From positions 1 to 15,995 of IMG/VR virus record IMGVR_UViG_3300048573_000051: a DNA stretch of 15,995 nt; one strand, 5' to 3'. The first letter of the stretch is position 1; the number at the start of each line of letters is the position of its first letter. Under the pieces are notes generated by a model that was given only the letters and a program-made list of their open reading frames with translations, did not search any database and was not told the origin of the DNA. Both the position numbers and the translations under genes were made by a program. Origin of the DNA: a virus (taxonomy: Duplodnaviria; Heunggongvirae; Uroviricota; Caudoviricetes). Positions 4,354 to 9,065 of the stretch are shown here, in pieces.

Positions 4354-4592
4354 TATTAACTCTTTTCTTTTGGCTACGCCCGATAGCTTGTCCTCAAGCC
4401 GGTTGGCTCTCTTGCAGAGTGCATGTTGAACCTTGCAGCTAACATAGCTCATGCAAAACCTTCAGCAAGGCATCTAAAACGCTCTACAAGGCTTCAATTT
4501 TAAGTTGCCTAGGGATGTGTAGCCTGAAGGTACGAAACGAGCGTATAGGCCGTTTAATCGTAAACATGAACTAACCTTATGATGGTGCAAAT

Positions 4593-5084
4593 ATGAACAT
4601 AATTGAATTGAAAGAAACTATTGATTATGATCTCTTCGCAGGAGCCTTCTATTTACTAAAGAACAACTGCAGATATAGAAGAATATTTCCAAACGAAGAT
4701 GGTTATATCATATTTTATAAAAATAGTAAAAGATTAAAATTTAAAGCTAATAAGTTAGCAATTGAGTTTGTGCAAAATATTGATGTGCAAAAAGATAAAG
4801 TAGTATTGCACAAAAACTTAGATGATACTGATTATAGATATATTAATTTAAAACTAATATCTAAGAAAGTGCATAACACAATTAAAGAAGCACATAGGAA
4901 TTTATCTGGTGCTTTAAAGCTCCAGCCTCATGCAAAGGATGTCTTCTCTTATGTTTTAACTTGGAAAGAAAACTCCAAAGATAAAATCTTAGTTGTGCAA
5001 GACATAGTAATAGCCAGAAGGTTATATACAAGGTTGCAACTCAAATATGCTAAGATTTTAAACAAGTTCTGTGTATTTGATTGA
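4593..5084 (+). CDS. Degenerate HNH-like protein (163 aa)
   Basis: ANKLAIEF...VVLHKNLDDTDYRYINLKLIS aligns by eye with the HNH pattern (AHRL..E...VDHINGD.TDNR.ENLRLV), with several conserved residues substituted. Confidence 0.6.
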   Translation: MNIIELKETIDYDLFAGAFYLLKNNCRYRRIFPNEDGYIIFYKNSKRLKFKANKLAIEFVQNIDVQKDKVVLHKNLDDTDYRYINLKLISKKVHNTIKEAHRNLSGALKLQPHAKDVFSYVLTWKENSKDKILVVQDIVIARRLYTRLQLKYAKILNKFCVFD

Positions 5085-5092
5085 TATTTCTC

Positions 5093-5121
5093 TTGAAATT
5101 TACGTATTCGTGTGCTATAAT
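5093..5121 (+). promoter_or_regulatory. sigma70 promoter upstream of candidate ncRNAs
   Basis: TTGAAA-17 nt-TATAAT with TGTGC extended -10; no plus-strand ORF follows until 5407. Confidence 0.85.
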
Positions 5122-5126
5122 CAAGG

Positions 5127-5222
5127 CTTCTATGTAAATTAAGTTATAGACTTTACGTAAATTGCACTATTAAGCGGTGCAACCCTGCGCAAAGACATTA
5201 ACAACTTAACCCTACATAGAAG
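5127..5222 (+). ncRNA. Candidate ncRNA domain 1: long rod hairpin with two identical AA/CCC internal loops
   Basis: Nested pairings 5127-5136/5213-5222 (10 bp), 5139-5145/5203-5209 (7 bp), 5151-5159/5186-5194, 5162-5168/5176-5182; starts at the predicted +1. Confidence 0.7.
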
Positions 5223-5232
5223 TAAACCTTCA

Positions 5233-5336
5233 TATGTTAGTCTAATTGCCCTTTCACTCCTTTCAGCGTTAGATGCTTCGGTATGAGCTGGACTAGTAAC
5301 CAGCACTAACACACAGTTAGTTCTTGCACTAACATA
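5233..5336 (+). ncRNA. Candidate ncRNA domain 2: five-way junction
   Basis: Closing stem 5233-5241/5328-5336 encloses four hairpins: 5242-5272, 5273-5284 (cUUCGg), 5287-5304, 5305-5321. Confidence 0.7.
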
Positions 5337-5352
5337 AATTTGTACACCATAC

Positions 5353-5382
5353 TTGACAAAAGACATTACTTATGTCTATAAT
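5353..5382 (+). promoter_or_regulatory. sigma70 promoter of the tRNA cluster with an operator-like inverted repeat
   Basis: TTGACA-18 nt-TATAAT; AGACAT-N5-ATGTCT at 5361-5377. Confidence 0.8.
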
Positions 5383-5406
5383 GAAGAAACACAATAAGAA
5401 TACCCT

Positions 5407-5607
5407 ATGAAATGCGTAATTTGTAACCAATACTTCAAACGTTCAGTCTTTAACCAGACTTTTGAATGCGATGCATGTCAAGCGATTGTATTAGATGAAT
5501 TTGATTCTGAAATGCAAGTTGAAGTGGAATTGCTAAGGCATCCTTCAGGTAAAACTCAAGCTGTTATCTATGATGATATGAACGATGATACCGGGGATTC
5601 AATTTAA
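5407..5607 (+). CDS. Small zinc-ribbon protein with acidic C-terminus (66 aa)
   Basis: CVIC...CDAC; D/E-rich tail; directly after a promoter; weak SD. Confidence 0.7.
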   Translation: MKCVICNQYFKRSVFNQTFECDACQAIVLDEFDSEMQVEVELLRHPSGKTQAVIYDDMNDDTGDSI

Positions 5608-5610
5608 TAT

Positions 5611-5684
5611 AGCGGGTAAGGTGGTCACTACTGCAGTCTCATAAGCTCGCAGCATCACTGGTTCGAATCCAGTACCCGCTTCCA
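5611..5684 (+). tRNA. Atypical tRNA with CAT anticodon (Met/fMet-like; Ile2 not excluded)
   Basis: Acceptor AGCGGGT/ACCCGCT, T-arm ACTGG-TTCGAAT-CCAGT, loop CTCATAA, encoded CCA; shortened D-arm and bulged anticodon stem. Confidence 0.75.
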
Positions 5685-5691
5685 AATTTAA

Positions 5692-5766
5692 GCTACTATC
5701 GTCTATCGGTTAGGACATCTGGTTTTCATCCAGACAAGCGGAGTTCGATTCTCCGTAGTAGCTCCA
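5692..5766 (+). tRNA. tRNA-Glu(TTC)
   Basis: GCTACTA/TAGTAGC acceptor, TCTGG-TTTTCAT-CCAGA anticodon arm, TTCGATT T-loop, CCA. Confidence 0.93.
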
Positions 5767-5775
5767 GAGCAAAAT

Positions 5776-5918
5776 AATGGAACTGGTAGGATCATCCATT
5801 CAACGGTTGTTAGTGACGATGGGGGCTATCGGAACTTTCAAATAAACGTGTATTCCGCAACTACGTTAAAAGTTCGGCTGCTCAATCGCCAACGGAAAGA
5901 GCATAAGGTTACAGTTGG
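5776..5918 (+). ncRNA. Candidate pseudoknotted ncRNA between tRNA-Glu and tRNA-Asn
   Basis: Hairpins 5776-5800, 5817-5831, 5832-5875 (inner 5845-5867), 5879-5903; loop CCAAC (5889-5893) complementary to GTTGG (5914-5918). Confidence 0.5.
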
Positions 5919-5926
5919 ATAAATTT

Positions 5927-6002
5927 TGGCATATAGCTCAGTTGGTAGAGCGTGAAACTGTTAATTTCAATGTCCGTGGTTCGAGGCCACGTATGCCAGC
6001 CA
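5927..6002 (+). tRNA. tRNA-Asn(GTT)
   Basis: TGGCATA/TATGCCA acceptor, AGCTCAGTTGGTAGAGC D-arm, TGAAA-CTGTTAA-TTTCA, G73, CCA. Confidence 0.95.
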
Positions 6003-6008
6003 AATAGT

Positions 6009-6084
6009 GTATCTGTAGCTCAATTGGCAGAGCATTGGATTCCAAATCCAAGGGTTAGTGGTTCAAGTCCATTCGGGTACGCCA
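6009..6084 (+). tRNA. tRNA-Trp(CCA)
   Basis: GTATCTG/CGGGTAC acceptor, TTGGA-TTCCAAA-TCCAA, GGTTCAAGTCC, G73, CCA. Confidence 0.93.
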
Positions 6085-6089
6085 AATAT

Positions 6090-6180
6090 AGGTGATTGGT
6101 TGAGAGGCCGAAAACAGCGGATTGCTAATCCGTAGGGTAGTAATACTGCCCCGTGCGTTCGAATCGCACATCACCTGCCA
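6090..6180 (+). tRNA. tRNA-Ser(GCT)
   Basis: AGGTGAT/ATCACCT acceptor, GCGGA-TTGCTAA-TCCGT, long variable arm GGGTAG/CTGCCC, TTCGAAT, G73, CCA. Confidence 0.93.
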
Positions 6181-6186
6181 ATAAAA

Positions 6187-6262
6187 CTGAGTGTAGCCTA
6201 GATAGTCAGGCACTTGATTTGGGGTCAAGACCACGGGTATGCGAGTTACCCCATTCAGACCA
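6187..6262 (+). tRNA. tRNA-Pro(TGG) with non-canonical D/T loops
   Basis: CTGAGTG/CATTCAG acceptor, CTTGA-TTTGGGG-TCAAG, T-loop TGCGAGT, A73, CCA. Confidence 0.85.
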
Positions 6263-6319
6263 ATCTTTGTTCTCCATTTGCGAATGGCGAATGCGCTATA
6301 TTAGAATAGCAAATAATTA

Positions 6320-6405
6320 GGATACGTATACCGTTAAGGAGACGGTCTGGTCTGTAAAACCAGCGCCACATGGCTCGTATGGATCGTTACCATAAGTATC
6401 CACCA
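6320..6405 (+). tRNA. tRNA-Tyr(GTA) with atypical T-loop and D-stem
   Basis: GGATAC/GTATCC acceptor, CTGGT-CTGTAAA-ACCAG, variable arm GCC/GGC, T-loop ATCGTTA, A73, CCA. Confidence 0.85.
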
Positions 6406-6409
6406 TAAA

Positions 6410-6666
6410 CCGTTCGAGAGATAGCTTATGCTATTACGGGAAGTAGCAAGGGGTGCGACTTACGCTATAAGTTAAAACGCACACTTACATTAAAGAACTC
6501 TACCTTAGGGTCCGAAGTAGCCTCGGTTTTAGGCGTCCCACGAATCTGTTGCGTGGTAACACGGAGTTTAGAAGCTTCGGGTAAGCACCGCCAAGTGCTT
6601 ACGCAAAGGATACAGCGTACTCATCTGCGGTAGATACGAAAAGGCTACTCGGGAGTCGTAACCCGA
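6410..6666 (+). ncRNA. Candidate large structured RNA between tRNA-Tyr and terS
   Basis: Multiple hairpins; 7-nt loop AGTAGCC (6516-6522) exactly complementary to GGCTACT (6643-6649); no ORF-track entry. Confidence 0.6.
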
Positions 6667-6684
6667 ACTAACACAGGAGAATAT

Positions 6685-7026
6685 ATGTTCGAAAAAGGTA
6701 AATCAGGTAATCCAAACGGTCGTCCTAAACGGTCAGACACTTCGGATAAACCAACTAACCGTGAGCTAAAAGAGCGTGAATTAGTCATGCTACTACGTAA
6801 GATCAAACCTCACGTAGCTGAAGCTATTGTGCAAGCGGCTAACATCATGAAGAACGCAGAAGCCAGTCACCAAAACCAGTTAAAAGCTGCAACTATCCTT
6901 TTGGATAACTATCGCAGATTAACCTTGGACATGTACGATGGCGAAGAGCAAGCCGATGAAGCTGGCGTGGAAGTGCAGCAAAATAATGCAGCAATTTTTA
7001 GCTTGAAAGTTGTTAACGAAGATTGA
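6685..7026 (+). CDS. terS: Probable terminase small subunit
   Basis: N-terminal FEKGKSGNPNGRPK (DUF5681-type motif common in TerS), helical core, SD CAGGAG, position upstream of terL. Confidence 0.7.
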   Translation: MFEKGKSGNPNGRPKRSDTSDKPTNRELKERELVMLLRKIKPHVAEAIVQAANIMKNAEASHQNQLKAATILLDNYRRLTLDMYDGEEQADEAGVEVQQNNAAIFSLKVVNED

Positions 7027-7032
7027 TTTTAT

Positions 7033-7098
7033 ACAACAGCTAGGTTGGCCCACCGAAAAGACGATTACTCACCGTCCTGCTGATTGTTTATTGTGAGT
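7033..7098 (+). promoter_or_regulatory. Candidate structured RNA leader (3-way junction plus pseudoknot) upstream of HNH
   Basis: CAGC/GCTG, TTGG/CCGA and GACG/CGTC stems; loop ACTCAC (7067-7072) complementary to GTGAGT (7093-7098). Confidence 0.55.
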
Positions 7099-7114
7099 TT
7101 CATTGGAGAATGAA

Positions 7115-7603
7115 ATGAAGAATTGCAAACGTTGTAATCAAGAGAAAGACTTATCTGAATTTTACAAAGCGAAAACATCTAAAGATGGTCATCAATCGCA
7201 CTGTAAAGACTGTCATAGTAAAACGAATAGTCAGAGATATTACGAAAAGCATGAAGAAAATCGTGCGCGACTTTCAAAGTATTATTTAGATAACCACGAA
7301 AAAGAAAAAGCTTCTCGTAGGGAGCACTATCAAAAGAACAAATCAACATATCTATTTAACTTTTATAAAAGAGAGTATAGATTAAAAGAGGCTACACCTA
7401 ACTGGTTAACTGCTGAAATGCTGTCTGAAATAAAAGACATTTACGCAAGAAGGCAGGAAATATCTAATGTAGCGGGTGTAGAACATCACGTAGATCACAT
7501 TGTACCAATTCAAGGCATTGATGTTTGCGGTTTGCACGTTCCTTGGAATCTTCAAATATTGACCGCAGAAGAAAACTTAAGGAAAAGTAATAAGTATGAG
7601 TGA
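7115..7603 (+). CDS. HNH endonuclease with N-terminal Zn finger (likely start ATG 7115 rather than TTG 7103)
   Basis: CKRC...CKDC; HHVDHIVP...VCGLHVPWNLQILTAEENLRKSN; GGAG at 7105-7108 lies 6 nt before ATG 7115; 8-nt overlap with terL. Confidence 0.88.
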   Translation: MKNCKRCNQEKDLSEFYKAKTSKDGHQSHCKDCHSKTNSQRYYEKHEENRARLSKYYLDNHEKEKASRREHYQKNKSTYLFNFYKREYRLKEATPNWLTAEMLSEIKDIYARRQEISNVAGVEHHVDHIVPIQGIDVCGLHVPWNLQILTAEENLRKSNKYE

Positions 7604-9065
7604 ACAAATAATTATCGGACCAGCAAGTAAAAAGCAAGAGTTATTTTTAAACAGCGATGCAACGATTACTTTAGCAGGGGGTGCTGCAGGTTCTGGTAAA
7701 ACTTATACTGCTCTTCTTATTGCACTTAAATTTATGCAAAATCCCAGAGCAACTGGAGTTATCTTTCGTAGAACTTCTAAGATGCTAACTGCTCCCGGAT
7801 CAATCTGGCATGAAGCTGTGCATTTGTACACTAGTATTTACCCTAATCTTAGGATTCGATCTAGAGAGCTTGAGTTAATTTTCCCAAATGGTGCATTACT
7901 TAAATTTAGTCACATGCAACATGCAACCAACGCCTTGGATCACAAAGGTGGTCAATACTCGTTGGTAATCTTTGACGAAGCAACAGACTTTGAAGAAGAG
8001 ATGGTCGTTTATTTGCTATCTCGTATGCGTAATGCTTACGTAGATTATAAACCGCAGATGTTTTTAATGACGAACCCCGACTACAATTCATTTTTAAGAG
8101 CTTGGTTAGAAGATTACTATCTAGACCCAAACACGGGTATTCCACTCCCTGAAAAAACAGGGCATAAACGTTATTTCTTTCGTCAAGGCAACACTATGCT
8201 TTGGTATAACAGTTTAGCCGAAGCTGAAGCAGCACATGGTGCAGGAGATGAGTCCGGTATTTCATCGTTTACATTCATTGGTGCAACCTGCCGTGATAAC
8301 CCTCCACTACTTAAAGCACAACCAGATTATATCAGCCGATTGATGTCCCTTCCTCGCGTAGAGAAAGAAAGACTACTTGATGGCTCATGGTTTGCTCGTC
8401 AAGAGTCCGCTGGTCTGTTTAAACGCGAGTGGGTCGGTCTTGTAGATCATGCGAACGGTAGAGCTAGAAAAAGAATTAGAGCTTGGGACTTTGCGTTTAG
8501 TAAACCCTCAGAGCAATATCCTAATCCTGACTGGTCACGAGGTGTTCTAATCTCTAAAGACCCGAACAATCTTTACACAGTAGAAGATGTAGTATCTTTG
8601 CGCGACAGAGTACACGAGGTAGAAAAGCTGGTTTTCGAAACTGCTCTTCGTGACGGTCAAGACGTAACTATCAGTATTCCATTGGACCCTGCTGCAGCCG
8701 CTGGAGCTTACGCTAAAGATTTACAGCGCAAGTTAGCTGAAATGGGTTTTCACGTAAGACTAACAAAACCTGTTAAGTCTAAGATTACTCGTTTTGCTCC
8801 TTTCTCAAGTATAGCACAAGCTGGATTCGTAAACGTAGTAAAAGCTAACTGGAATAAAGATTTCTTTGATGAACTAGAAGTGTTCGATGGTGATCCTAAA
8901 AAGAAAGATGACCAAGTTGATTGCTGCTCAGATGCAATGCTGTTGTTAAATAAAGATACTCAGCTACCAGTATTTTCACTACCAGATTTTACAGGTAGTA
9001 ACCCTTTCGATGGAAGCATCACAGGCTCCAATATTCCTACATTTCAAAGTTCATTAGTTTCATAA
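7596..9065 (+). CDS. terL: Terminase large subunit
   Basis: Walker A GGAAGSGKT, Walker B LVIFDEAT, MTNP coupling motif, RNase H-like nuclease AWDFA...DDQVD. Confidence 0.95.
   Translation: MSEQIIIGPASKKQELFLNSDATITLAGGAAGSGKTYTALLIALKFMQNPRATGVIFRRTSKMLTAPGSIWHEAVHLYTSIYPNLRIRSRELELIFPNGALLKFSHMQHATNALDHKGGQYSLVIFDEATDFEEEMVVYLLSRMRNAYVDYKPQMFLMTNPDYNSFLRAWLEDYYLDPNTGIPLPEKTGHKRYFFRQGNTMLWYNSLAEAEAAHGAGDESGISSFTFIGATCRDNPPLLKAQPDYISRLMSLPRVEKERLLDGSWFARQESAGLFKREWVGLVDHANGRARKRIRAWDFAFSKPSEQYPNPDWSRGVLISKDPNNLYTVEDVVSLRDRVHEVEKLVFETALRDGQDVTISIPLDPAAAAGAYAKDLQRKLAEMGFHVRLTKPVKSKITRFAPFSSIAQAGFVNVVKANWNKDFFDELEVFDGDPKKKDDQVDCCSDAMLLLNKDTQLPVFSLPDFTGSNPFDGSITGSNIPTFQSSLVS

What the first reader, a model, noticed from the sequence alone, without database searches (positions are those of the whole stretch)
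5093..7098. RNA-dense cassette: tRNAs interleaved with several unrecognised structured RNAs, feeding into the packaging genes
About 2 kb under two consensus promoters carries 7 tRNAs plus at least four non-tRNA folded segments, with no obvious terminator before terS. Stable non-tRNA species inside a phage tRNA cluster have precedent (T4 species 1 and 2 RNAs), but these folds match no family I can recognise. They could be released by tRNA-processing nucleases and act as a translation-control or anti-defence RNA toolkit.
Basis: partly seen in the sequence, partly recalled or inferred. Interest (0 to 1): 0.72.

Follow-up and report, generated by a model that had tools for sequence, protein, structure and literature searches.

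The report
Phage tRNA array framed by structured RNAs
This 2-kb, mostly non-coding stretch of a freshwater phage holds seven tRNA genes plus at least three genuinely folded, conserved RNAs; they are four unrelated kinds of element, not one tRNA-linked toolkit, and two of them are uncatalogued RNA families found even in relatives with no tRNAs.

Summary
Window 5093-7098 is 27% coding. It has two conserved consensus promoters, 5 clear and 2 sub-threshold tRNAs, no predicted terminator, and conserved non-tRNA segments.

Comparison with about 45 related phage loci shows four different things:
1. M0 (5126-5330) is a ~200-nt RNA starting at promoter P1. Compensatory changes occur in 39 of 45 pairs, and the loop UCCUUU never varies.
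2. A ~176-nt RNA (6499-6675) lies directly before the terS-like gene, with compensatory changes in 29 of 39 pairs.
3. M1, M2, X1 and X2 are truly embedded among the tRNAs. M2 has weak structural support; M1, X1 and X2 have none.
4. 7033-7114 is a divergent Rfam int-alpA RNA. It is the leader of a mobile homing-endonuclease cassette, a pairing this scan has already noted in many other genomes.

M0 and the terS leader match no Rfam family. Both also occur in Curvibacter phage P26059A, which has no tRNAs nearby. They therefore form a conserved frame around a hypervariable slot that collects tRNAs, small modules and endonuclease cassettes.

The functions of M0 and the leader are inferred only. The layout is a new variant of a known kind (T4 RNAC/RNAD, PAK_P3 ncRNA1/2).

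The parts
5093..5121 (+). Promoter P1 (TTGAAA-17-TATAAT with extended -10 TG)
   Evidence: Consensus scan, 11/12. Both hexamers are conserved in 18 of 19 related loci (A4).
5126..5330 (+). M0: ~200-nt two-domain structured RNA beginning at the P1 start site (paired core 5128-5304). Its apical loop carries the invariant anti-Shine-Dalgarno-like CUCCUUU (5257-5263).
   Evidence: On a structure-blind MAFFT alignment, 97.7% of cells are paired, 20 of 45 pairs are compensatory, and 0 of 500 shuffles reach this. With 33 sequences found by model R3, 39 of 45 pairs are compensatory. The loop is invariant in all 33. Invariant G:U pairs place the RNA on the + strand. The minus-strand ORF 5139-5366 is not conserved. 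No Rfam hit.
5353..5382 (+). Promoter P2 (TTGACA-18-TATAAT)
   Evidence: 12/12 match. Conserved as TTGACA or TAGACA with TATAAT or CATAAT in relatives.
5407..5607 (+). orf66, a small conserved protein with two CxxC pairs and no known family
   Evidence: ORF list. Homologous in 31 loci by blastn. No Pfam or PHROG hit.
5611..5684 (+). tRNA-Met(CAU)-like gene, non-canonical (short D arm, bulged anticodon stem), encoded CCA
   Evidence: Rfam tRNA 25.8 bits, below the cutoff of 29. Found only by relaxed ARAGORN. 94-100% identical in 16 loci. Cloverleaf-like minimum-energy fold.
5692..5766 (+). tRNA-Glu(UUC)
   Evidence: ARAGORN and Rfam, 56.4 bits.
5767..5842 (+). X1: 76-nt insert between tRNA-Glu and M1, present in only 2 other loci
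   Evidence: blastn. Fold z-score -1.3, no structural support.
5843..5926 (+). M1: 84-nt module lying flush between tRNA-Glu and tRNA-Asn. Sequence is nearly invariant; structure is unproven.
   Evidence: Present in 15-16 loci, always abutting tRNA-Asn (0-2 nt gap). 90% column identity with 0 compensatory pairs. Fold z-score -0.15.
5927..6002 (+). tRNA-Asn(GUU)
   Evidence: ARAGORN and Rfam, 65.2 bits.
6009..6084 (+). tRNA-Trp(CCA)
   Evidence: ARAGORN and Rfam, 65.1 bits.
6090..6180 (+). tRNA-Ser(GCU)
   Evidence: ARAGORN and Rfam, 52.7 bits.
6187..6262 (+). tRNA-Pro(UGG) with a non-canonical T loop
   Evidence: ARAGORN only. No Rfam hit even at E<=10. The T loop reads UGCGAGU in the sequence.
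6263..6319 (+). X2: 57-nt spacer with two small hairpins, present in only 3 other loci
   Evidence: blastn. Fold z-score -1.5. A weak promoter-like site lies at 6278-6307, 9/12.
6320..6405 (+). tRNA-Tyr(GUA)-like class II tRNA with T loop AUCGUUA and encoded CCA
   Evidence: Relaxed ARAGORN only. Clean cloverleaf minimum-energy fold, z -2.06. Limnohabitans phage DC31 has an annotated tRNA-Tyr in the corresponding place.
6406..6492 (+). M2: ~80-nt module that follows tRNA-Tyr by 2-3 nt. A bulged hairpin plus a possible H-type pseudoknot.
   Evidence: Model R2 finds it in 18 loci. In tRNA-less L016/L023 it follows orf66 directly. 93% column identity. The pseudoknot model is 98.6% paired, but only 2 pairs are compensatory, both from the same 3 sequences. 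Hairpin 1 is re-paired in the divergent L009 copy.
6499..6675 (+). terS-leader RNA: ~176 nt, seven covarying hairpins plus a weak 4-bp closing helix. It ends 9 nt before the terS start codon.
   Evidence: Model R1 finds it full-length directly upstream of terS in 35 loci. 96.7% of cells are paired, 29 of 39 pairs are compensatory, and 0 of 500 shuffles reach this. Also present in DC31 (110.6 bits) and Curvibacter phage P26059A (66.3 bits). No Rfam hit.
6685..7026 (+). terS-like gene (DUF5681), assigned by family and by its position before terL
   Evidence: Pfam PF18932, 33.3 bits. PHROG 3900, function unknown. Homologs in 41 loci.
7033..7114 (+). int-alpA-type leader of the HNH cassette. Three-way junction 7033-7087. 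P3 loop ACUCAC (7067-7072) pairs with GUGAGU (7093-7098). Small hairpin 7099-7114 presents the SD GGAG (7105-7108) in its loop.
   Evidence: RF02996 scores 33.6 bits, below the cutoff of 35.8. Homologous copies score 51.5, 41.6 and 39 bits. P1, P2, P3, the pseudoknot and the SD hairpin all covary in 18 copies.
7115..7603 (+). HNH homing-endonuclease gene inserted between terS and terL (absent at this site in DC31)
   Evidence: PHROG 1035, 2340 and 2255, endonuclease VII / HNH. DC31 has terS directly before terL. Start codon ATG 7115 with SD read from the sequence.

Best explanation
The stretch is a composite, co-directional non-coding region of a virulent freshwater phage related to Limnohabitans phage DC31. 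It has a conserved frame and a variable slot.

The frame reads: promoter P1, then M0 RNA, then promoter P2, then orf66, then the slot, then the terS-leader RNA, then terS. The slot sits between orf66 and the leader. In different relatives it holds 0 to about 14 tRNA genes, the small modules M1 and M2, homing-endonuclease cassettes and even ordinary ORFs.

Shown here:
- M0 and the terS leader are + strand structured RNAs under strong purifying selection for their pairings.
- Both exist with or without tRNAs.
- The fold after terS is a divergent int-alpA RNA that travels as the 5' leader of unrelated homing-endonuclease genes.

Inferred:
- Host RNA polymerase starts at P1 and P2 and reads through, since no terminator is predicted.
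- RNase P and the tRNA 3'-end nucleases cut out the tRNAs, which would also free M1 and M2 because they abut tRNA ends.
- M0 acts through its invariant CUCCUUU loop by pairing with purine-rich Shine-Dalgarno-type sequences.
- The leader acts in cis on the packaging operon, in mRNA 5'-end protection, processing, or protein- or ligand-dependent control. It probably does not act by simply masking the terS ribosome site, because an endonuclease cassette can sit between them.
- The int-alpA leader limits HNH translation through its loop, decoy and SD pairings and the SD hairpin.
For: Layout across 43 loci: M0 occurs in 33 loci and the leader in 35 or more, while each tRNA, M1 (15-16 loci) and M2 (18 loci) come and go. 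L016, L023 and L039 have no tRNA but keep M0, orf66, M2 and the leader.

Curvibacter phage P26059A (TerL 50% identical; terS-like 61% identical) has M0 at L112:4890-5090, a small ORF, the leader at 5359-5552 and then terS, with no tRNA in 6 kb.

Covariation:
- M0: 20 of 45 pairs on a structure-blind alignment and 39 of 45 with distant members; slid controls pair only 29-39% of cells.
- Leader: 29 of 39 pairs; slid controls pair 30-37%.
- Invariant or frequent G:U pairs in both place them on the + strand.

The M0 loop UCCUUU is invariant in 33 of 33 sequences. AAAGGAG is the SD of the portal gene, the 11016 gene and a minus-strand gene in the window.

The leader stays with terS when three ORFs (1.65 kb) separate it from M2. 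In L004/L005 an int-alpA+HNH cassette sits between the leader and terS.

All 18 aligned int-alpA copies plus the duplicate-locus copies listed are followed by an endonuclease-type ORF (start found 2-27 nt after the matched stretch). Pfam confirms HNH_3, PDDEXK_5 and T5orf172 (HNH only weakly); two ORFs tested got no family. Their stems, pseudoknot and SD hairpin covary.

Precedents: T4 RNAC/RNAD are stable late RNAs of unknown function (PMC9697503). PAK_P3 ncRNA1/2 are processed, abundant RNAs, and ncRNA2 follows tRNA-Tyr (PMC10914365; annotation). T4 has segB inside its tRNA cluster and RBS hairpins on endonuclease genes (PMC2988022).
Against: No transcript ends, processing sites or abundances were measured. 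The metatranscriptome contigs that cover M1, M2, leader+terS and the int-alpA leader come from relatives, and DNA carry-over cannot be excluded.

Read-through from P1 and P2 into terS is assumed only because no terminator was predicted, and the terminator scan is simple. Late, phage-specific promoters would not be seen.

M1 has no structural support and could be a DNA-level element. M2's structure rests on 2-3 independent changes.

The leader's closing helix is only 4 bp with one compensatory pair. It may therefore be a string of separate hairpin modules rather than one domain.

The alignments made with the models lean towards the model structures.

In the window's own int-alpA copy the loop pairs contiguously with the decoy but only 3 bp with the SD region. 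A bulged 3+3 pairing was seen by eye only.
Confidence: 0.6

Rival explanations
1. All the non-tRNA folds form one toolkit of small RNAs that tRNA-processing nucleases cut from a single tRNA precursor, and they act in trans on translation or against host defence.
For: M1 and M2 abut tRNA ends by 0-3 nt in many loci. T4 RNAC/RNAD and PAK_P3 ncRNA2 show that such species can accumulate. Three of the seven tRNAs are non-canonical, which would suit nuclease-resistant replacement tRNAs; that link is my inference.
Against: M0 lies upstream of the tRNAs, at a promoter start. The leader and M0 persist in relatives with no tRNA. The leader stays with terS, not with the tRNAs. The 7033-7114 fold belongs to an endonuclease cassette. 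M1 shows no covariation.
Confidence: 0.12
2. The terS-leader RNA is a sensor such as a riboswitch or a protein-binding leader, or a processive antitermination element. It would gate expression of the whole packaging operon in response to a cellular or phage signal. M0 would be a promoter-proximal RNA that modifies RNA polymerase, as the HK022 put RNAs do.
For: Seven covarying helices are joined by invariant single-stranded junctions and loops, which is typical of RNAs with a specific tertiary fold or ligand. The position at the head of the terS, terL and portal genes is constant. M0 starts at the P1 start site. Comparison with put RNAs and riboswitches is from my own knowledge.
Against: No alternative terminator or anti-terminator pairing, and no pairing that hides the SD, is conserved. 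No terminator is predicted downstream. No Rfam riboswitch or leader hit at E<=10. No extra pseudoknot helices were found in an all-pairs scan.
Confidence: 0.15
3. The conserved non-tRNA segments work as DNA rather than RNA: promoters for phage-modified polymerase, a pac or terminase recognition site next to terS, or homing and recombination sites that shuffle tRNA modules.
For: M1 is nearly invariant without any covariation or thermodynamic signal. Endonuclease cassettes insert exactly at module borders. pac sites often lie in or near terS (my own knowledge).
Against: For M0, the leader and the int-alpA leader, dozens of compensatory changes plus many G:U pairs (which would be C:A on the other strand) point to a + strand RNA. 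Double-stranded DNA sites do not need helix-preserving double changes.
Confidence: 0.08

Closest known systems
Rfam int-alpA RNA (RF02996; typed 'Gene; sRNA'). By my recollection it is one of the candidate RNAs of Weinberg et al. 2017, PMC5737381. That paper's main text does not mention it and no supplement is held.
   Same: Window 7033-7099 aligns over the whole 71-position model. It has the closing helix, CUAG, hairpin, GAAAAG, second hairpin and CCUG. Homologous copies in relatives pass the curated cutoff at 51.5, 41.6 and 39 bits.
   Different: The window copy scores 33.6 bits, below 35.8. Here the RNA is the 5' leader of free-standing homing-endonuclease genes rather than of int or alpA genes. 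It also carries a covarying loop-to-downstream pseudoknot and an SD hairpin that lie beyond the Rfam model. Its function is untested.
Phage T4 RNAC and RNAD (species 1 and 2 RNAs) in the T4 tRNA cluster
   Same: These are non-tRNA RNAs encoded in a phage tRNA region. They are stable, late and of unknown function (PMC9697503). M1 and M2 sit among tRNAs in the same way.
   Different: Sequence or structural relatedness was not tested, because no T4 model or sequence was compared. M0 and the terS leader do not depend on a tRNA cluster at all.
Pseudomonas phage PAK_P3 ncRNA1 and ncRNA2 (Chevallereau 2016; Putzeys 2024, PMC10914365)
   Same: The gene order is the same: divergent promoters, small ORFs, sRNA1, promoter, small ORF, tRNA-Tyr, sRNA2 directly after tRNA-Tyr, further tRNA. 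Both RNAs are abundant, arise by processing, and are confirmed by Northern blot.
   Different: No hit of models R1, R2 or R3 in the searched stretch of the PAK_P3 record, 83000-88097. They are therefore analogous at best, and the functions are unknown on both sides.
T4-type control of homing-endonuclease genes by RNA hairpins at the ribosome-binding site, and segB inside the T4 tRNA cluster (PMC2988022)
   Same: Free-standing endonuclease genes sit between tRNA genes and between essential genes. An RNA structure involves the SD just before the start codon (here).
   Different: Here the leader is a portable ~85-nt three-way junction plus pseudoknot shared by unrelated nuclease families. The SD lies mostly in the hairpin loop rather than buried in a long stem.
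GOLLD and ROOL large RNAs
   Same: They are ornate RNAs often found near tRNAs and in phages or prophages, possibly co-transcribed with the tRNAs (PMC5737381).
   Different: They are several hundred nucleotides long and catalogued in Rfam. No Rfam hit was found here at E<=10. M0 and the leader are 176-205 nt.

Membership tests
Rfam int-alpA (RF02996) | Covariance-model score at or above the curated gathering score (35.8 bits) | tested here: not met
   The window copy scores 33.6 bits, E 1.4e-4 in a 2.4-kb search. It is not reported at gathering threshold.
Rfam int-alpA (RF02996) | Homology to sequences that do pass the family threshold | tested here: met
   L006:4349-4415 scores 51.5 bits, L016 41.6, and L004/L005 39. 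All align with the window copy in A6 and share CUAG, GAAAAG and CCUG.
Rfam int-alpA (RF02996) | Three-way junction (closing helix plus two hairpins) kept by compensatory changes | tested here: met
   The closing helix and both hairpins change on both strands among the 18 copies. This was read from the alignment, not counted with the pair-count tool.
tRNA (RF00005) for the Met-like gene 5611-5684 | Score at or above 29 bits, or detection by ARAGORN at default settings | tested here: not met
   25.8 bits. Found only with relaxed ARAGORN. Acceptor stem, T arm, CUCAUAA loop and CCA are present.
tRNA (RF00005) for the Tyr-like gene 6320-6405 | Score at or above 29 bits, or detection by ARAGORN at default settings | tested here: not met
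   No Rfam hit at E<=10. Relaxed ARAGORN only. The minimum-energy fold is a class II cloverleaf with a GUA anticodon and CCA.
tRNA-cluster stable RNAs of the T4 RNAC/RNAD kind | Encoded between tRNA genes on the same strand | tested here: met
   M1 lies between tRNA-Glu and tRNA-Asn, and M2 lies 2-3 nt after tRNA-Tyr, in many loci. This is not true of M0, the leader or the int-alpA fold.
tRNA-cluster stable RNAs of the T4 RNAC/RNAD kind | Accumulate as discrete stable RNA species during infection | not testable with these tools
   Only assembled contigs from RNA libraries were available. They show presence, not ends or levels.
PAK_P3 ncRNA1/ncRNA2 | Sequence and structure homology | tested here: not met
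   Models R1, R2 and R3 give no hit in PAK_P3 83000-88097. Only the gene order is alike.
T4-type RBS-hairpin control of homing-endonuclease genes | A conserved hairpin that includes the SD directly upstream of the endonuclease start codon | tested here: met
   Most of the 18 copies fold a small hairpin (-2.3 to -7.4 kcal/mol; two are weak or fold differently, -0.1 and -2.5) with the SD in the loop or 3' arm. The stems differ between copies. An effect on translation was not tested.
Any catalogued RNA family, for M0, M1, M2 and the terS leader | An Rfam 15 hit | tested here: not met
   cmscan of 4900-7300 at E<=10 reports nothing over 5122-5406, 5767-5926 or 6263-6684 apart from tRNAs and chance-level hits that overlap tRNAs.

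The most novel reading that the evidence does not exclude
M0 and the terS-leader RNA are two new classes of functional phage RNA with active roles. M0 would be an abundant early decoy whose invariant 16S-tail-like CUCCUUU loop binds Shine-Dalgarno sequences and so reprograms translation, either shutting off the host or delaying the late genes. The ~176-nt leader would be a sensor, or a packaging-linked RNA acting on TerS or the terminase, that times DNA packaging.
Probability: 0.12. Interest if true: 0.85.

Novelty: new variant of a known kind. Interest (0 to 1): 0.6.

Why it matters
Phage genomes are densely coding. A 2-kb stretch that is nearly three quarters RNA genes and conserved from Limnohabitans phages to a Curvibacter phage therefore points to RNA functions still missing from phage biology.

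Two uncatalogued RNA families can now be defined, each with a covariance model, a clear consensus structure and a fixed genomic address: the P1 start site, and the head of the packaging operon. Both occur in a cultured phage-host pair (Limnohabitans phage DC31 and strain DCL3), so their roles can be tested directly.

The frame-plus-slot view also explains how tRNA sets, small RNA modules and homing-endonuclease cassettes are exchanged among related phages.

Tried and rejected
- Megablast of the region against 50,697 phage records found nothing. Only blastn and tblastn found DC31.
- The genome search with RF02996 on the phage's own 59-kb record returned no match, although cmscan gives 33.6 bits. 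This is taken as a filter effect.
- RNA-library contigs from four freshwater metatranscriptomes of four studies cover parts of relatives: M1 (5846-5941, 5859-5919), M2 (6398-6487), leader+terS (6521-7067) and the int-alpA leader (7034-7126). They are assembled contigs, DNA carry-over cannot be excluded, and parts without cover mean nothing. They are not used as evidence of expression.
The loop varies freely in relatives (AGUCACC, AGUCCCU, UUGACGUA and others), while GGCUAC is the covarying 3' strand of a local hairpin. The repeated GAAGUAGC is specific to the window.
- An all-pairs scan of the leader alignment found no stacked extra helices.
- My cross-control for the int-alpA pseudoknot was only modest: own loop and tail 5.7 bp, other types 4.6 bp. 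The loop types share CAC and G:U pairs were allowed.
- The minus-strand 75-aa ORF inside M0 is not conserved.
- Hairpins resembling the leader's last hairpin (loop ..UCGUAA) do not recur elsewhere in the genome in any meaningful way. No paralogs of any module exist in the 59-kb record.
- No int-alpA-like leader precedes the HNH-like ORF 4593-5084.
- The exact leader motif is absent from 185,579 bacterial species genomes. The 18-mer of M0's last hairpin gave 5 hits, about what chance predicts by my estimate. Model R3 scored them at most 18 bits, two matching only the 18-mer itself.
- Single-sequence folding energies of X1, M1, X2, M2 and the int-alpA leader are unremarkable, z -0.15 to -1.6.

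Full report
**What the window is.** The window is bases 19-16013 of a 59,456-base IMG/VR viral contig estimated at 74% complete. Its large terminase is 93% identical to that of Limnohabitans phage DC31 (PQ492658.1). It is about 50% identical to that of Curvibacter phage P26059A and 46-47% identical to the terminases of several Pseudomonas phages. Searching IMG/VR with the terS-like protein gave 41 related loci, L003-L043. These, with DC31 (L001) and later P26059A (L111 and L112), are the comparative material.

**Checking the observation.**
- ARAGORN at default settings finds five tRNAs: Glu, Asn, Trp, Ser and Pro. Rfam passes four of them.
- The Met-like gene scores 25.8 bits against a cutoff of 29. 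The Tyr-like gene and tRNA-Pro get no Rfam hit even at E<=10.
- Both weak genes fold as cloverleaves with an encoded CCA. The Tyr-like gene has T loop AUCGUUA, and tRNA-Pro has T loop UGCGAGU. Three of the seven are therefore non-canonical.
- P1 (5093-5121, 11/12 with an extended -10) and P2 (5353-5382, 12/12) are the two best promoter-like sites. No + strand terminator-like site lies in 4400-7700.
- The count of promoter-like sites is not above shuffles. However, both promoters are conserved in 18-19 relatives.
- Only orf66 (201 nt) and the terS-like gene (342 nt) are coding, which is 27% of 5093-7098. tRNAs take 554 nt and 909 nt are other non-coding sequence.

**The non-tRNA sequence is modular.** blastn of the gaps against the related loci shows sharply bounded pieces, 84-100% identical, that occur in different combinations and positions. 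I mapped tRNAs and pieces in 43 loci and found a constant order:

M0, orf66, [variable slot], leader, terS.

The slot holds anything from no tRNA (L016, L023, L039) to 14 (L031, L043). It also holds M1, M2, endonuclease cassettes and, in L008/L010/L011, three ordinary ORFs spanning 1.65 kb.

**M0 (5126-5330).**
- It starts at the P1 start site.
- On a structure-blind MAFFT alignment of 19 sequences, RNAalifold gives 45 pairs, of which 20 have compensatory changes.
- The pair count shows 97.7% of cells paired, with 0 of 500 shuffles reaching the observed covariation. Slid controls pair only 29-37%.
- A covariance model (R3) finds full-length copies in 33 loci, including DC31 and P26059A. With these, 39 of 45 pairs are compensatory.
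- The apical loop of the second domain carries UCCUUU in all 33 sequences, mostly as ACUCCUUUCA.
- Invariant U:G and G:U pairs place the RNA on the + strand.
- The 75-aa minus-strand ORF across it is not conserved.
- AAAGGAG, the exact complement of the loop, is the Shine-Dalgarno sequence of the portal gene, the 11016 gene and a minus-strand gene in the window. Such purine runs are generic SDs.

**The terS-leader RNA (6499-6675).**
- The alignment of 17 homologs already shows multiple compensatory changes in each of seven hairpins.
- Model R1 finds full-length copies ending 10-30 nt before terS in 35 loci.
- 96.7% of cells are paired, 29 of 39 pairs are compensatory, and 0 of 500 shuffles reach this. 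Slid controls pair 30-37%.
- The outer closing helix is only 4 bp with one compensatory pair. Whether this is one closed domain or a row of hairpins stays open.
- An all-pairs scan found no further stacked helices.
- The RNA stays with terS when ORFs rather than tRNAs precede it.
- In L004/L005 an endonuclease cassette lies between it and terS, inserted exactly after its 3' tail CUAAUUUAUA.
- L017 and L020 carry a duplicated last hairpin next to the terS ribosome site.
- The exact core motif occurs in 32 IMG/VR contigs of this clade and in no bacterial species genome.

**Independence from tRNAs.** Curvibacter phage P26059A has M0 (79 bits, L112:4890-5090) in the gap before a 73-aa ORF. The leader follows (66.3 bits, 5359-5552), and then a terS homolog 61% identical to the window's. 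There is no tRNA in the last 6 kb of that genome. The two best-supported RNAs are therefore not products of a tRNA array. They frame the place where arrays accumulate.

**M1, M2, X1 and X2.**
- M1 (5843-5926) always lies directly before tRNA-Asn and 1-3 nt after tRNA-Glu, or after X1. Its central 45 nt are invariant in 12 sequences. It has no compensatory pair and a fold energy no better than shuffles.
- M2 (6406-6492) follows tRNA-Tyr by 2-3 nt in 12 loci. In tRNA-less L016/L023 it follows orf66.
- M2's first hairpin carries a conserved six-base bulge and is fully re-paired in the divergent L009 copy.
- An H-type pseudoknot in M2's second half is compatible with all sequences (98.6% paired). 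It is backed by only two compensatory pairs from the same three sequences.
- X1 and X2 occur in only 2-3 other loci and have no structural support.

**The fold after terS (7033-7114).**
- Rfam int-alpA aligns over its full length at 33.6 bits, just under the cutoff of 35.8. Homologous copies in relatives score 51.5, 41.6 and 39 bits.
- In the related loci the element occurs up to three times per locus, between tRNA genes as well as after terS.
- All 18 aligned copies, and the duplicate-locus copies listed with them, are followed by an endonuclease-type ORF whose start was found 2-27 nt after the matched stretch. Pfam confirms HNH_3, PD-(D/E)XK and T5orf172, and HNH only weakly. Two of the eight ORFs tested got no family and one got only a zinc ribbon below cutoff.
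- The 18 copies show compensatory changes in the closing helix and both hairpins.
- The second hairpin's loop is complementary to a site about 20 nt downstream in all 18 copies, in four different sequence versions.
- In 14 of 18 copies that loop is also complementary to the SD region over 6-7 bp (7 bp in 11 of them). The window's own copy manages only 3 contiguous pairs; a bulged 3+3 pairing was seen by eye only.
- A small covarying hairpin presents the SD immediately before the start codon.
- DC31 lacks the HNH gene at this site, so the leader plus HNH is an inserted mobile cassette.
- Notes of this scan report the same int-alpA-before-endonuclease arrangement in many other genomes. I checked the decoy and SD idea from those notes here, and it holds for most copies.

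**Comparison with what is known.**
- T4 has RNAC and RNAD, stable late RNAs of unknown function (PMC9697503). By my own knowledge these lie in its tRNA region.
- T4 also has the homing endonuclease segB between tRNA genes, and RBS-sequestering hairpins on endonuclease genes (PMC2988022).
- Pseudomonas phage PAK_P3 shares the gene order: promoters, small ORFs, sRNA1, tRNA-Tyr, then sRNA2. Its two RNAs are abundant processed species confirmed by Northern blot (PMC10914365). None of my three models hits the searched stretch of the PAK_P3 record.
- GOLLD and ROOL are much larger tRNA-associated phage RNAs (PMC5737381).

**Expression.** Contigs from four freshwater metatranscriptomes cover M1, M2, leader+terS and the int-alpA leader of close relatives. 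They cannot exclude DNA carry-over and show no ends or levels, so I do not count them as evidence.

**Verdict.** The cassette consists of four unrelated kinds of element:
- two uncatalogued, strongly covarying RNA families (M0 and the terS leader) that form a conserved frame;
- small modules truly embedded among tRNAs (M1, M2), with weak or no structural support;
- a divergent member of the catalogued int-alpA family serving as a homing-endonuclease leader;
- a tRNA set with three non-canonical members.

The mechanisms of M0 (anti-SD pairing) and of the leader (cis control or protection of the packaging mRNA) are inferences. They should be tested in the cultured DC31 system.

Noticed in passing
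L016:5123-5357 and L022:4431-4639: Group I introns (Rfam RF00028, 73.1 and 64.3 bits) lie downstream of terS in two related contigs. In L016 the intron splits the terL match into two pieces. The window's terL has none.
   Followed up: no
window 5290-5313 and 6652-6675: M0 and the terS leader end in the same kind of module: a 5-bp covarying stem, an 8-nt loop ending in GUAA (AUAAGUAA and ARUCGUAA), then ACUAA(U/C). blastn shows 83% identity over 24 nt (alignments). It could be a shared protein-binding or processing signal.
   Followed up: partly
window 5305-5345; A4 columns 240-320: After M0 comes a run of GCACUAA(C/U) motifs that can form alternative UUAGU/ACUAA hairpins. The copy number varies from one to four between relatives.
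   Followed up: no
own genome C1:50174-50898, outside the window: A second tRNA cluster lies on the minus strand (Val-AAC, Arg-ACG, Arg-UCU).
   Followed up: no
L017:1799-1880 and L020:448-530: An ~86-nt insertion between the leader and terS contains a second copy of the leader's last hairpin plus CUAAU, placed next to the terS ribosome site.
   Followed up: no
L010:2218-3817 (also L008 and L011): Three + strand ORFs, one of them a 350-aa glycine-rich protein, are inserted between M2 and the terS leader.
   Followed up: no
window 4593-5084: The ORF just upstream of P1 is weakly HNH-like (PHROG 99, E 3.6e-5; Pfam HNH_3 below cutoff). It has no int-alpA-type leader.
   Followed up: partly
L083:3302-3440 (PAK_P3 record about 86301-86439): By eye, the PAK_P3 sRNA2 region has a tRNA-like acceptor stem and T arm around a long insert, with a CCGG-AUCGUAAG-CCGG hairpin reminiscent of the leader's last loop. 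Unannotated tRNA-like remnants lie further upstream.
   Followed up: no
L005:3370-3385 compared with window 7027-7040: The endonuclease cassette's 5' border (UUUAUAC before ACAGCUAG) is the same after the leader's tail in L005 and after the terS stop codon in the window. This suggests a short shared insertion site.
   Followed up: no
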